Shown: piece after piece, positions 3,001 through 6,000 of the stretch
Layout: each line of letters begins with the position of its first letter
How positions within the stretch are numbered: the stretch's first letter is position 1
From: a virus
Taxonomy: Duplodnaviria > Heunggongvirae > Uroviricota > Caudoviricetes
Strand: one strand, 5' to 3'
Virus record (IMG/VR): IMGVR_UViG_2703718786_000008
Length of the DNA stretch: 28,315 nt
Position numbers: made by a program

Positions 3001-6000
3001 AATGCAGAAGCAACTGGAAGGAGCACAGGAATATATCCGTACCCAGTGTATACCGTGATGTTTTGTTATGAAGGTGTTACTGGTAACGTTAAGGTAATTT
3101 AACAAAGAGTCAGTTCCGGACTTTATAGTGTGCTCAGTTCATGGACAAAAACGATTTCTGTGATAAATATTTTGAATATTATTTACAGGTAAATGGAGTG
3201 GGGCGCATGGATAGAAATATTACAATAGAGTATGAAGTATATGCCCGTATTGTATGGGCAGAGAAGGCAAAAACACGGTAATTCCGTGTGTTGCCATGAT
3301 ACCTGATTGGCAGAATAGTTGTTTGGTTTTGAGTATATAGTCAGCGTTTTTTGTTCAGTAATTGCCCCCTCAAAAAATAATAAAATAAGGTGATTATTTT
3401 TGTTTATTATTTAGTTTTTTTTGTGTGTTATTTTATTGTTTTTGCGTGGTTTGTTTTTTATTGTTATTTCATTAAGGGAAGGTAAATTCAGGATGGCAGT
3501 CTGTAGATAATCGGAGGTCACTTATGCTACATGATCACGTGGCAGAATGTCTGGAGAAAAAAGGACTGTACCGGAGAGCAGCTGAACGATGGGCAAAAGT
3601 GATGGTACAGCTAAGTGATGACCAGAAAAGAAAAGTGGCGGCACAGAAACGAGCAGAGTGTTTGCGTAAGGCGCGCCGGACTCCGGTTTCACCGGTGAAC
3701 CTGACCGAAATAAAACAAGCGGTCAACAGACTACATTCTGAGTTGGGAATGGGATTTGAAGAGCGGCGGGTATTCCGACGATATAAAGGGACAGGAGAAC
3801 AGAATACGTCCGGAAACGCGCGGTCAAAAAAATGCTAAAAAATATCTGAGAGCGTTATTGCCTGTTACCATAAGAAAAAGCGACTTTAGTGGTCGCTTTT
3901 TGTGTCATATATAAGTCGTTTAAGTAAACCTGTCTGAACAGGTGCTCTGGTCGTGTTTGTCTTTGTTGGGTACAAATTGAGCATGTTTTTCATTAATTAA
4001 TCTTCTTCTGCAGGCTTCAATAACCCACGCTGAAAAATTACCTGAACCTTTCTGATCAAGAGCGATGTTAATTTGTTCAATCATTTGGTTAGGAAAGCGG
4101 ATGTTGCGGGTTGTTGTTCTGCGGGTTCTGTTCTTCGTTGACATGAGGTTGCCCCGTATTCAGTGTCGCTGATTTGTATTGTCTGAAGTTGTTTTTACGT
4201 TAAGTTGACGCAGATCAATTAATACGATACCTGCGTCATAATTGATTATTTGACGTGGTTTGATGGCGTAGATGCACGTTGTGACATGTAGATGATAATT
4301 ATTATCATTTTGCGGGTCCTTTCCGGCGATCCGACAGGTTACGGGGCGGCGACCTCGCGGGTTTTCGCTATTTATGAAAATTTTCCGGGAACCATGTCCG
4401 GTTTCTCTGCAAGTTAACTACATGAAAAATATAAGAACGGGCTTTCCGTGAACCGGACATGCGCAAAAAATGGACATATAAACCGGACATGATCGGTTTT
4501 GTGCTAATTGTGAGGTGAGAGTTTTTGCGAGGTGAGGAGTGGCTACGCAGACTGAAGTTGCCAGGCATTTAAGTCTGACCGATCGCCAGCTTCGCAGATT
4601 GCAGAAATTGCCGGGTGCCCCGATATCAAATAAGCGAGGGCAACTGGATCTGGATGCCTGGCGCGATTTTTACATATCGTATCTGAGGAGAAGTAAAAAC
4701 GATGTGCCTGATGGCGATAGCGAAGACGACTATGAGGAGAAATTGCTTATTGCCAGATGGGAACTGACAGCAGAACAGGCTGTTACACAGCAGCTAAAAA
4801 ATGAGGTGTCAAAAGGAAAACTGATTGACACCGGATTCTGTATTTTTGCCCTCAGTAAGATGGCAATGGCGTTATCCAGTACGCTTGATTCCATCCCTTT
4901 ATCCATGCAGCGACAGTTTCCTGATTTAACACCGCGCCATCTTGACCATCTGAAAACCCTTATTGCGAAGGGGGCAAATCAGTGTGCGCGGGCGGGGGAT
5001 AAATTACCGGATTTACTCGATGAATATATCAGAGCAACAACTGAATAATATGATGAGCGCTGTCACAACAGCATTACAGCCCCTGATAAGGGCATTGCCG
5101 GTGACGCCAGTTGAATGGGCTGATCAAAATTATTATCTGCCGAAAGAATCTTCATATGGTGAGGGAGAATGGAAAACGCTGCCATTCCAGATCGCCATTA
5201 TGAACTGTATGGGTAACGACCAGGTTCGCACGGTTAACCTGATTAAATCTGCCCGTGTTGGCTATACAAAGATGTTGCTGGGGGTGGTCGGGTATTTTAT
5301 TGAGCATAAATCCCGAAACAGTCTGCTTTTTCAGCCCACGGATTCTGCCGCTGAAGATTTTATGAAGTCTCACGTGGAGGCGACGATTCGGAACGTGCCA
5401 TGCCTGAAAGACCTTTCCCCATGGCTGGGTCGTAAACATCGTGACAATACTCTCACGCTGAAACGCTTTTCATCGGGCGTCGGTTTCTGGTGCCTGGGCG
5501 GCGCTGCCGCCAAAAACTACCGTGAAAAATCCGTGGACGTGGTCTGCTATGACGAACTTTCCTCGTTCGAGCCGGATGTCGAAAAAGAGGGCTCGCCAAC
5601 CCTGCTGGGGGATAAGCGTATTGAGGGGTCGGTGTGGCCAAAATCCATTCGCGGCTCGACGCCTAAAATCAAAGGCACCTGCCAGATCGAAAAAGCCGCT
5701 AACGAGTCGGCACACTTCATGCGTTTTTATGTGCCCTGTCCGCACTGTGGGGAGGAGCAGTATCTGAAATTTGGCGATGATGCCTCGCCTTTCGGTCTTA
5801 AGTGGGAGAAGAATAAGCCAGAAAGTGTTTTCTACCTTTGTGAGCATCATGGCTGTGTGATCCATCAGTCTGAGCTTGACCAGAGTAACGGGCGGTGGAT
5901 CTGTGAAAACACGGGCATGTGGACCCGTGACGGTCTGACGTTTTTCAGCGCCCGGGGTGATGAAATTCCGCCGCCGCGCTCCATCACGTTCCATATCTGG

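What the first reader, a model, noticed from the sequence alone, without database searches (positions are those of the whole stretch)
4300..4540. Lambda-identical cosN joined to non-lambda cosB repeats: mosaic packaging specificity
The cohesive-end site and its flanks read as phage lambda (…GATCCGACAGGTTACG GGGCGGCGACCT CGCGGGTTTTCGCTATTTATGAAAATTTTCC). The downstream terminase-binding region instead carries three AACCGGACATG-type repeats (one inverted) rather than lambda's R sites. The Nu1-like protein correspondingly has a diverged N-terminal DNA-binding region but a lambda-like C-terminal part. Together with the phage-21-type pinholin and SAR endolysin, this suggests a 21-like packaging and lysis specificity grafted onto a lambda-like head and tail module.
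Basis: partly seen in the sequence, partly recalled or inferred. Interest (0 to 1): 0.4.

Follow-up and report, generated by a model that had tools for sequence, protein, structure and literature searches.

The report
Fourth lambda-type packaging recognition cassette
This prophage has phage lambda's DNA cutting site and phage 21's head genes, but between them sits a third, uncharacterised kind of packaging-recognition unit (three CATGTCCGGTT repeats plus a small terminase with its own DNA-binding domain), which occurs in about a fifth of complete E. coli genomes.

Summary
The lambda cohesive end GGGCGGCGACCT lies at 4344-4355, and its flanks are lambda-like up to 4388. The exact 11-mer CATGTCCGGTT occurs three times in the 28 kb window, all within 4393-4491.

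- The cosB/terS cassette (4392-5101) has no nucleotide similarity to lambda or to phage 21.
- Its TerS is 31-32% identical to lambda Nu1, 21 gp1 and N15 gp1. The Pfam Nu1 model matches only residues 49-150.
- The head genes downstream (5102-11859) are 95% identical to phage 21, not lambda-like.

The TerS N-terminal domain (MATQxEVAxH...) defines a subfamily found from Enterobacteriaceae to Pseudomonas and Aeromonas. Most sampled members (26 of 32 distinct forms) carry a CCGGTT-containing site, usually TCCGGTT, upstream of terS. In all enterobacterial members where bp 1 could be placed it starts at bp 50-52 from the cohesive end.

Enterobacterial members share a lambda-like layout: R3, an IHF-like site, and an inverted R2 exactly 54 bp from R3. 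TerS residue 20 co-varies with the base 5' of the core (Arg with G, Asp/Asn with T), as in 21 versus lambda.

I read it as a fourth, experimentally uncharacterised packaging-recognition class of lambda-like cos phages. It is a new variant of a known kind and of moderate interest.

The parts
4314..4320 (+). cosQ heptamer GGGTCCT (packaging termination signal in lambda-like phages)
   Evidence: It is identical to lambda/21 cosQ (annotated in phage 21) and is conserved in all enterobacterial relatives.
4344..4355 (+). cosN cohesive-end sequence GGGCGGCGACCT, the inferred 12-nt 5' overhang. The nick on the top strand would fall between 4343 and 4344.
   Evidence: It is identical to the lambda and phage 21 left ends. 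Cleavage itself is inferred, not shown.
4356..4388 (+). Lambda-identical segment between cosN and cosB, at the position annotated as the I2 site in the older phage 21 record (M81255). The left mosaic junction lies at 4388-4392.
   Evidence: blastn identity to lambda ends at 4388 and to phage 21 at 4391. The I2 site is annotated at bp 30-44 in M81255.
4393..4403 (+). R3-equivalent TerS binding site CATGTCCGGTT, at bp 50-60 from the left cohesive end
   Evidence: It is invariant in 24 distinct E. coli cos sequences. A site with the same TCCGGTT core starts at bp 50-52 in Klebsiella, Salmonella, Citrobacter and Enterobacter relatives.
4415..4427 (-). I1-equivalent IHF-like site. It reads TTTCATGTAGTTA on the minus strand, with 2 mismatches to WATCAANNNNTTR.
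   Evidence: The best IHF match lies at the same offset (11 bp after the R3 core) and the same strand in 8 of 10 representative cosBs, plus a tied 1-mismatch match in L195. It is a perfect 13/13 match in L024, L025 and L029. On its own the window's copy is not significant (45% of shuffled spacers reach 2 mismatches or fewer).
4451..4461 (-). R2-equivalent site, AACCGGACATG, inverted relative to R3. The R3 core to R2 core distance is 54 bp.
   Evidence: The 54-bp spacing is constant in 10 divergent cosBs although the spacer sequences do not align.
4481..4498 (.). R1-equivalent pair: AACCGGACATG (4481-4491, minus orientation) overlapping the degenerate CATGATCGGTT (4488-4498, plus orientation). 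Together they form an imperfect palindrome.
   Evidence: Most E. coli relatives read AACCGGACATGACCGGTT. A third copy is present only in some relatives (window, PhiR12, L024, L027).
4539..5048 (+). terS (small terminase, 169 aa, GTG start). It has an N-terminal winged-HTH domain of a distinct subfamily (residues 1-55), a central coiled coil, and a C-terminal TerL-binding segment.
   Evidence: The MATQ N-terminus is conserved in all homologues, which supports the start codon. The gene is annotated 'terminase small subunit' in RefSeq.
5020..5101 (+). First ~27 codons of terL, which belong to the swapped cassette. terL runs 5020-6948.
   Evidence: Near-identity to phage 21 starts at 5102. The first 100 TerL residues are 66% identical to 21 and 92% to the Klebsiella relative L024. 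The role in TerS binding is inferred by analogy with lambda gpA, from general knowledge.
5102..11859 (+). Phage-21-type head gene block: rest of terL, head-tail joining protein, portal, protease/scaffold, decoration protein and major capsid protein
   Evidence: 95.3% nt identity to phage 21 791-7554 against 66-68% to lambda.

Best explanation
Window 4314-5101 is a lambda-type cos site joined to a distinct recognition cassette.

How it most likely works: TerL nicks the lambda-identical cosN (4344-4355) and cosQ (4314-4320) acts at termination, as in lambda. Initiation depends on TerS (4539-5048) binding the CATGTCCGGTT repeats of cosB. R3 (bp 50-60) and the inverted R2, 54 bp away, are brought together by an IHF-induced bend at the I1-like site, so that the two winged-HTH domains of a TerS dimer can dock. 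The R1 pair is accessory. The TerS C-terminus holds the matching N-terminus of TerL over cosN.

What it belongs to: the TerS DNA-binding domain belongs to a separate subfamily of Nu1-type domains whose cognate site has the core TCCGGTT. The cassette (R sites + terS + first ~27 terL codons) is neither lambda's, 21's nor N15's. It has been recombined between lambda-like cosQ/cosN and phage-21-type head genes. It therefore most likely confers a fourth packaging specificity.

Shown here: sequence anatomy, mosaic boundaries, conservation, co-variation and predicted fold. Inferred: binding, bending, cleavage and actual specificity.
For: 1. All three perfect 11-mers in 28 kb lie within 99 bp at the cosB position.
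2. There is no nt similarity to lambda or 21 over 4392-5101, flanked by 94% lambda-like and 95% 21-like DNA.
3. TerS is 31-32% identical to Nu1, gp1 and N15 gp1. Pfam Nu1 matches only residues 49-150.
5. hhalign aligns the HTH with lambda Nu1 at a one-residue offset (P = 0.001, probability 21%).
6. The same domain type occurs in Klebsiella, Salmonella, Citrobacter, Enterobacter, Pseudomonas and Aeromonas phages and in more distant bacteria. 26 of 32 distinct forms carry CCGGTT (usually TCCGGTT) upstream of terS. In the 11 enterobacterial cosBs where bp 1 could be placed it starts at bp 50-52.
7. The R3-to-R2 distance is constant at 54 bp, and the IHF consensus sits at a fixed offset across unalignable spacers.
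8. R3 is invariant in 24 distinct E. coli cos sequences, while the spacers vary.
9. With few exceptions, every R copy in a cos has G just 5' of TCCGGTT when TerS residue 20 is Arg, and T when it is Asp, Asn, Ser or Glu (exceptions are listed in the Against line). Three further loci, chosen before their cos sequences were seen, fitted the rule.
10. That base aligns with lambda/21 'bp 56', and residue 20 aligns with lambda N21 and 21 R21, so the Arg-G and Asn-T pairings are the same.
11. The TerL N-terminus co-varies with the TerS type.
Against: - There is no experimental evidence here for binding, cutting or specificity.
- The window's own I1-like site has 2 mismatches and is not significant by itself.
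- The third repeat has the orientation of R2, not of R3 as R1 does in lambda and 21, and it is missing in several relatives. A three-site requirement is therefore doubtful.
- The R core starts at bp 50, against bp 53 in lambda and 21. Feiss et al. stress that the cosN-to-R3 distance is critical (PMC4669245), so my motif-based alignment of R cores, and hence the equation with 'bp 56', may be in the wrong register.
- The Arg20 lineages may descend from a single event, so the co-variation is not many independent observations.
- The co-variation rule has exceptions. Six distant forms (L016, L017, L020, L021, L023 and the upstream-truncated L050) show no CCGGTT at the expected position. L014 (Lys20), L012 (one of its two copies) and the plus-strand R1b copies (CATGACCGGTT) have G or A where the T of TCCGGTT should be. 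Rare single-copy variants such as CATATCCGGTT (L090) also occur.
- The core resembles 21's R core (CATGTC-GG), so cross-recognition by 21 terminase is not excluded.
- Foldseek hits to winged-HTH proteins were all non-significant (E > 0.1). The profile search of PDB sequences found no Nu1 or Rpp.
Confidence: 0.78

Rival explanations
1. One reading: cosB and TerS are the phage 21 specificity determinants, so phage 21 terminase and this phage package each other's DNA.
For: The repeat core CATGTCCGG resembles 21's R cores CGTGTCGG and CATGTCGG, including G at the 'bp 56' position. The R3/R2/R1 positions are similar: 50/108/138-145 here against 53/112/153 in 21. The pinholin is 78% identical to S21, and the head genes are 21-type.
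Against: There is no nt similarity to 21 over 4392-5101. TerS is 32% identical to gp1 and has a different recognition helix. 21 gp1 matches Pfam Nu1 from residue 1, whereas this protein matches only from residue 49. The site has C, not G, at the second discriminating position and a family-specific GGTT extension. The first 100 residues of TerL differ from 21 (66% identity), whereas the whole protein is 94.7% identical.
Confidence: 0.07
2. Only R3 is the functional TerS site, giving a 'simple cosB' as in N15. The R2 and R1 copies would be dispensable relics or fitness accessories.
For: Distant relatives (Pseudomonas LPPA33/Y8, Aeromonas phiARM81ld, E. coli 705R4 and others) have only one compact site, TTTCCGGTTCCGGTT, just upstream of terS. 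The third copy is absent in several enterobacterial relatives. R1 is non-essential in lambda, and N15 works with R3 alone (PMC4669245).
Against: In 13 enterobacterial representatives that have intact upstream sequence, R2 is present and inverted. It lies exactly 54 bp from R3 in the 10 measured and at the equivalent bp 108 in the three held-out loci, with an IHF-like site between. It tracks the same G/T state as R3. That pattern indicates selection on R2. Two viral contigs with otherwise similar proteins (L112, L198) show no AACCGG match at the R2 position. I did not inspect them.
Confidence: 0.12
3. The repeats are operators for a transcription factor, for example the PerC-family protein encoded just upstream, or a late-operon control element, and are not terminase sites.
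For: The repeats lie in the intergenic region upstream of the first late head gene. A PerC-family gene lies at 3524-3838.
Against: The repeats keep a fixed distance from cosN, not from the terS start. R3 lies 93 to 141 bp from the start codon but always at bp 50-52 from the cohesive end. They co-vary with a TerS residue. The motif follows the TerS domain type into genomes with quite different neighbours. In lambdoid phages late transcription comes from pR' far upstream (general knowledge).
Confidence: 0.03
4. The locus is a PICI-like hijacking cos, where lambda-like cosQ/cosN is combined with a foreign cosB read by an Rpp-type protein that borrows a helper phage's TerS.
Against: The protein is full-length, with the Nu1 core and a C-terminal segment (Pfam 49-150). 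It is followed by its own terL and a complete head and tail operon. According to PMC9026076, Rpp proteins are 135-153 aa, lack the TerL-binding tail, and PICI cosB has no R2/R1.
Confidence: 0.02

Closest known systems
Phage lambda cos (cosQ-cosN-cosB with R3-I1-R2-R1) and gpNu1
   Same: cosQ and the 12-nt cohesive end are identical, and the flanks are identical to bp 45. R3 is at about bp 50-60, R2 is inverted, an IHF-type site lies between them, and terS and terL follow immediately. TerS has a winged HTH, a coiled coil and a TerL-binding tail. The R cores share the skeleton C-R-T-K-T-C-C-G: lambda CGTTTCCG, window CATGTCCG, Klebsiella relative CATTTCCG, Pseudomonas relative CGTTTCCG.
   Different: The R consensus is CATGTCCGGTT, against lambda's CGTTTCC(G/T)TTCT. 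TerS is 31% identical to Nu1, its DNA-binding domain is not detected by Pfam Nu1, and it is 12 residues shorter with a shorter wing. The core starts 3 bp closer to cosN. The third repeat is in the opposite orientation.
Phage 21 cosB and gp1 (the second documented specificity)
   Same: The tripartite layout is the same and the R core is similar (CATGTCGG against CATGTCCGG). Both have G at the 'bp 56' position together with Arg at the equivalent recognition-helix position (21 R21, window R20). The head genes downstream are 95% identical to phage 21.
   Different: The cassette DNA is not alignable with 21. gp1 is 32% identical and has a lambda-type DNA-binding domain. The base at the 'bp 59' position is C here and G in 21.
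Phage N15 (simple cosB) and the Monarch group (complex cosB), the third documented specificity (PMC4669245)
   Same: One TerS domain type occurs with either a compact single-site cosB (Pseudomonas, Aeromonas and 705R4 relatives) or a tripartite cosB with an IHF site (the window). Proteins with the N15/Monarch recognition helix (ISVQAFDKWG) share this TerS's C-terminal two-thirds at about 57-67% identity over 85% of the protein.
   Different: The recognition helix and the R sequence (N15 GAGGTTGTTGTTT at bp 48-60) are unrelated to those of the window.
PICI cos sites and Rpp proteins (EcCICFT073)
   Same: Lambda-like cosQ/cosN is joined to a different cosB that is read by a winged-HTH protein of the same fold. 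RppC is the best structural match.
   Different: Rpp is a parasite's adaptor that needs the helper's TerS. Here the protein is a complete TerS within a complete morphogenesis operon.

Membership tests
Lambda-like cos site (12-nt 5' cohesive ends, as defined in PMC4669245) | 12-base cohesive-end sequence with strong identity to lambda's, flanked by the conserved nick-site bases | tested here: met
   4344-4355 is GGGCGGCGACCT, identical to lambda and 21. Actual cleavage is not testable here.
Lambda-like cos site (12-nt 5' cohesive ends, as defined in PMC4669245) | Conserved cosQ heptamer upstream of cosN | tested here: met
   GGGTCCT at 4314-4320. The same heptamer is annotated as cosQ in phage 21.
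Complex (tripartite) cosB of lambda, 21 and Monarch | Three R sequences, with R2 opposite in orientation to R3 and R1, and R3 at about bp 50-65 | tested here: inconclusive
   R3 (+, bp 50-60) and R2 (-, bp 108-118) fit. The third perfect copy (bp 138-148) has R2's orientation. A degenerate plus-strand copy overlaps it at bp 145-155. The third copy is absent in several relatives.
Complex (tripartite) cosB of lambda, 21 and Monarch | IHF binding site (I1) between R3 and R2 | tested here: inconclusive
   The window has a site with 2 mismatches at 4415-4427, which is not significant alone. It is positionally equivalent to perfect 13/13 IHF consensus sites in three relatives. IHF binding was not tested.
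Lambda packaging specificity (gpNu1 / cosB-lambda) | R sequences matching CGTTTCC(T/G)TTCT and the Nu1 recognition helix (IRTIQNWQE) | tested here: not met
   The R sites read CATGTCCGGTT, the helix is TDRQLRRLQK, identity is 31%, and nt similarity ends at 4388.
Phage 21 packaging specificity (gp1 / cosB-21) | R sequences C(A/G)TGTCGG with G at both discriminating positions (bp 56 and 59), and the gp1 recognition helix (PRTIERWQS) | tested here: not met
   The core is CATGTCCGG, with G then C at the two positions. The helix differs, identity is 32%, and there is no nt similarity over 4392-5101. Functional cross-packaging is not testable here.
N15/Monarch packaging specificity | Recognition helix ISVQAFDKWG and the R3-N15 sequence | tested here: not met
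   Alignment and the N15 left end.
Phage_Nu1 small terminase family (PF07471) | Score above the Pfam gathering threshold | tested here: met
   68 bits against a cut-off of 30, but only over residues 49-150, which correspond to profile positions 62-163.
Nu1/Rpp-type winged-HTH DNA-binding domain | N-terminal alpha1-turn-alpha2-wing-alpha3 fold superposable on the lambda TerS DNA-binding domain | tested here: met
PICI Rpp / cos-PICI | Short protein (135-153 aa) lacking the TerL-binding tail, no terL or head genes downstream, and cosB with only an R3-like site | tested here: not met
   This is a full TerS followed by terL and head and tail genes, and the cosB has several R copies.

The most novel reading that the evidence does not exclude
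This TerS subfamily is a fourth, orthogonal packaging specificity of lambda-like cos phages, and it contains at least two sub-specificities set largely by one recognition-helix residue. Arg20 reads G and Asp/Asn20 reads T at the base 5' of TCCGGTT, which is the same residue-base logic that separates 21 from lambda. Because the DNA-binding domain, the R sites and the TerL N-terminus move as a cassette, and the domain is also swapped on a common TerS body, the type of cassette would decide which co-resident prophages (for example the many lambda-like prophages of O157:H7) and which PICIs can be cross-packaged.
Probability: 0.45. Interest if true: 0.55.

Novelty: new variant of a known kind. Interest (0 to 1): 0.42.

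Why it matters
According to the 2015 paper by Feiss and colleagues (PMC4669245), only three packaging specificities have been documented for lambda-like cos phages: lambda, 21 and N15.

This cassette is a sequence-distinct fourth class. It is present in 1,149 of 5,426 complete E. coli genomes, against 650 for the phage 21 type, and O157:H7 strains carry multiple copies.

If it really is orthogonal, three things follow:
- It would determine which prophages in polylysogens can package one another, and so affect the spread of virulence genes.
- It would offer a natural test of the Arg-G / Asn-T recognition rule proposed from lambda/21 genetics.
- It would add an orthogonal cos/terminase pair for cosmid and transduction tools.

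It also gives a clean natural example of module exchange at the functional domain boundaries of terminase.

Tried and rejected
- Phage 21 identity. I retrieved M81255 and OL657228 and compared them at DNA and protein level. The idea is rejected for the cassette but accepted for the head genes.
- DLP12 as a 21-type reference. Its cos and nohD turned out to be lambda-type, so I used it only as a lambda-type comparator. I fetched Qin but did not need it.
- N15/Monarch identity. Rejected because the helix and R3 differ.
- Sequence searches of the PDB with TerS and with the family profile. They found neither Nu1 nor Rpp.
- Three IMG/VR scans returned mostly near-identical E. coli copies. These were useful for conservation but gave little diversity. 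The diversity came from genome contigs and from exact-protein look-ups.
- Literature searches found no description of this cosB or TerS type. The O157 Sakai paper (PMC2669165) only aligns the 'Nu1' and cos of Sp4 and Sp14 with lambda in a supplementary figure, which I could not read. The library lacks most subscription papers, including the 2015 Virology papers on N15 and on lambda/21 contacts, so prior description cannot be excluded.
- PMC9836094, on lambdoid mosaicism, does not mention terminase.
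Full report
**The observation**

The window carries a canonical lambda-type cos. cosQ (GGGTCCT) is at 4314-4320 and the cohesive-end sequence GGGCGGCGACCT is at 4344-4355. The sequence stays identical to lambda through 4388 (...ATGAAAATTTTCCGG). The upstream region 3997-4388 matches the lambda right end and left end at 94% and is nearly the same as the region upstream of nohD in the K-12 DLP12 prophage.

Similarity to lambda stops immediately after 4388. The exact 11-mer CATGTCCGGTT then occurs at 4393-4403 on the plus strand and, as AACCGGACATG, at 4451-4461 and 4481-4491. 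These are the only perfect matches in the whole 28 kb on either strand. About 0.014 would be expected from a uniform-base estimate (my arithmetic). A degenerate plus-strand copy (CATGATCGGTT, 4488-4498) overlaps the third repeat. In most relatives it reads CATGACCGGTT, so that the third repeat and this copy form an imperfect palindrome.

**The protein**

The ORF at 4539-5048 (GTG start, 169 aa) is followed by terL, whose ATG is at 5020. It is 31-32% identical to each of lambda Nu1, phage 21 gp1 and N15 gp1.

The Pfam Phage_Nu1 model matches it only over residues 49-150, whereas the three reference proteins match from residues 1-6. Neither the protein nor a profile of its family finds the lambda Nu1 domain or Rpp among PDB sequences.

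I conclude that the N-terminal domain is a very diverged Nu1-type winged HTH rather than an unrelated domain. That conclusion rests on a predicted structure.

**Is it phage 21-like?**

I retrieved phage 21 (M81255 with annotated R sites, and the complete genome OL657228).
- blastn finds no similarity between the window and phage 21 over 4392-5101.
- From 5102 to 11859 the window is 95.3% identical to phage 21 positions 791-7554, against 66-68% to lambda.
- Protein identities to phage 21 are TerL 94.7%, portal 99.2%, protease/scaffold 97.8%, decoration protein 95.7% and major capsid protein 94.9%. The lambda values are 54-66%.
- The tail genes are about 77-78% identical to both phages.
- The pinholin is 78% identical to S21, but the endolysin is only 33% identical to R21.

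The head module is phage 21's, and the cosB-terS cassette in front of it is neither 21's nor lambda's.

The right-hand junction falls about 27 codons into terL. The first 100 TerL residues are 66% identical to phage 21 but 92% identical to a Klebsiella prophage that has the same TerS type. In lambda the TerL N-terminus binds the TerS C-terminus (general knowledge). The exchanged unit therefore corresponds to the complete recognition module: R sites, TerS and the TerS-binding end of TerL.

**Relatives**

The N-terminal domain (consensus MATQxEVAxHLxLxxRxxRxLxKxPGxP..RGxxDxDAWRxFYIxYL) defines a subfamily. It has 42 clusters at 50% identity in 1.8 billion representatives, nearly all at the N-terminus of TerS-sized proteins.

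Members occur in:
- E. coli and the PhiR12 phages (99%);
- Klebsiella (80%), Salmonella (66-69%), Citrobacter and Enterobacter (about 61%);
- more distantly, Pseudomonas phages LPPA33 and Y8, Aeromonas phage phiARM81ld and E. coli phage 705R4;
- genomes of Azospirillum, Methylococcaceae and others.

Most carry CCGGTT, usually as TCCGGTT, upstream of terS: 26 of 32 distinct protein/site forms. In six distant or truncated forms (L016, L017, L020, L021, L023, L050) I found no copy at the expected position.

The distant members that have the motif carry one compact site, usually TTTCCGGTTCCGGTT, 15-40 bp upstream of the start codon. In phiARM81ld this is at bp 54-68 from the genome end.

The enterobacterial members have a lambda-like complex cosB:
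- an 11-mer ending in TCCGGTT starting at bp 50-52;
- an inverted copy whose core is exactly 54 bp further on, in all ten examined, although the 47-bp spacers do not align;
- the best IHF-consensus match at the same offset and strand in eight of ten (plus a tied match in a ninth), perfect in three.

Only some members have a third copy. This parallels the simple (N15) versus complex (Monarch) dichotomy described in PMC4669245.

Within 79 E. coli copies (24 distinct sequences), R3 never varies, while the R2-R1 spacer is the most variable part.

**Co-variation**

Across distinct protein and site combinations, TerS residue 20 tracks the base just 5' of the TCCGGTT core.
- When residue 20 is Arg (E. 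coli window type, Salmonella L028, Citrobacter L026/L193/L195, Enterobacter L027), the R copies read ATG-TCCGGTT, apart from the variants noted below.
- When it is Asp, Asn, Ser or Glu (Klebsiella L024, E. coli L029, Salmonella L025 and most of the distant members that have the motif), the copy or copies have T just 5' of TCCGGTT, reading (A/C/G)(T/C/G)T-TCCGGTT.

Exceptions are:
- L014 (Lys20) and one copy in L012, where the core reads GCCGGTT;
- the plus-strand R1b copies, which read CATGACCGGTT;
- rare single-copy variants in E. coli prophages.

I then looked up three more members chosen by protein sequence alone (P0014 with Asn20; P0027 and P0033 with Asp20). All had T at that position in both copies.

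Overall TerS identity does not follow this split. The Asp20 Klebsiella protein is 80% identical to the window's, while the Arg20 Citrobacter protein is 61% identical. The DNA-binding domains of the Arg20 group are, however, closest to one another. The Arg20 state may therefore have arisen once, and the observations are not independent.

Aligned by motif, the R cores are:
- lambda CGTTTCCG
- phage 21 CGTGTCGG and CATGTCGG
- window CATGTCCG
- Klebsiella relative CATTTCCG
- Pseudomonas relative CGTTTCCG

The co-varying base is then the one that Feiss and colleagues call bp 56, which is T in lambda and G in 21. Residue 20 aligns with lambda N21 and 21 R21. The same Arg-G and Asn-T pairing therefore recurs.

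There is a caveat. The window's core starts at bp 50, not bp 53, and PMC4669245 warns that the cosN-to-R3 distance matters. The register of this comparison is an inference.

**Domain swapping**

Several proteins share the window TerS's C-terminal two-thirds but carry other N-terminal domains. One group has the N15/Monarch recognition helix (P0056, P0060, P0069, P0073 and others). Another has a lambda/21-like domain (P0063, P0067). This is the kind of recognition-domain exchange that PMC4669245 suggested as a route to new specificities.

**Prevalence and prior knowledge**

Among 5,426 complete E. coli genomes, the cassette (4389-5048) is present at 80% coverage or more in 1,149, at 2,364 places in all. 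The equivalent lambda segment is present in 3,914 genomes, a figure inflated by the DLP12 remnant, and the phage 21 segment in 650. O157:H7 strains carry several copies.

RefSeq calls the gene simply 'terminase small subunit'. The window itself is identical to a prophage of E. coli 377323_2f.

In the searchable literature I found only the three documented specificities (lambda, 21, N15) and the PICI Rpp system, and no description of this type. Key subscription papers were not available, so earlier mention cannot be ruled out.

**Verdict**

This is a real, conserved cosB belonging to a distinct TerS recognition subfamily, and most likely a fourth packaging specificity of lambda-like cos phages. 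It is inserted as a cassette between lambda-type cosQ/cosN and phage-21-type head genes.

The mechanism is inferred by analogy and from comparative evidence. Nothing about binding or specificity has been measured. It is a new variant of a known kind and of moderate interest.

Noticed in passing
P0056, P0060, P0069, P0073, P0076, P0082, P0084, P0072; P0063, P0067: These are natural chimeric small terminases. They share the C-terminal two-thirds of the window's TerS but have either an N15/Monarch-type DNA-binding domain (ISVQAFDKWG) or a lambda/21-like one (VRTITAWQ). The recognition domain is thus exchanged on a common body.
   Followed up: partly
L025, L026, L028/L203, L201, L027, L029: Cohesive-end sequences differ among relatives that share this cosB type: GGGCGGCAGCGT, GGGCGGCGTCCG (identical to N15's), GGGCGACGCGCT and GGGCGGAAACCA. 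The differences are mostly in the right half, while cosQ stays GGGTCCT. In L027 and L029 the position of bp 1 is only my guess.
   Followed up: partly
L109, and the L033 group (40 IMG/VR loci); window 4508-4519 / 4525-4536: There are deletion variants among E. coli copies. One has lost the interval between R2 and the third repeat, as expected from unequal crossing-over between repeats. A large group lacks 17 bp, which appears to lie between the direct repeats TTGTGAGGTGAG and TTGCGAGGTGAG just upstream of terS. About 22 loci have AGCCGGACATG in the third repeat.
   Followed up: partly
L011-L023: Loci from very distant bacteria (Azospirillum, Rhodospirillaceae, Methylococcaceae, a Sericytochromatia MAG) keep a cosQ-like GGGTCCT, a short AT-rich stretch and a GGTTCC-type repeat upstream of a terS with the MATQ-type N-terminus. 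This suggests the cos layout is far older than the lambdoid phages of enterobacteria.
   Followed up: no
window 506-712, 1568-2101, 717-1163, 1179-1442 (-): The lysis cassette is itself mosaic. The pinholin is 78% identical to S21, but the endolysin is only 33% identical to R21 and is annotated rrrQ-type lysozyme. Two extra ORFs sit between holin and endolysin, one a truncated YdfR-family pseudogene. Whether the endolysin has a SAR signal was not tested.
   Followed up: no
window 3524-3838 (+) and 3920-4144 (-): A PerC-family transcriptional regulator gene and a YlcI/YnfO (DUF3950) gene lie directly upstream of cos. The 3997-4388 stretch is shared with lambda and DLP12.
   Followed up: no
window 4368-4568 (-): A 66-aa minus-strand ORF spans the whole cosB. 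In phage PhiR12_1 a shorter minus-strand ORF in the equivalent cosB region is annotated as a hypothetical protein. It is probably not a gene, given that the region consists of conserved repeats and variable spacers.
   Followed up: no
window 23738-24361: A Lom-like outer-membrane protein gene is 64% identical to lambda Lom and has no counterpart in phage 21. The side tail fibre N-terminus (24420-24778) is 87-89% identical to both phages.
   Followed up: no
P0103 (2465 aa), P0119, P0127: The search with the 55-residue DNA-binding domain also hit very long proteins, with many repeated weak matches (19 stretches in P0103). These are probably repeat or low-complexity artefacts, but I did not examine them.
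   Followed up: no
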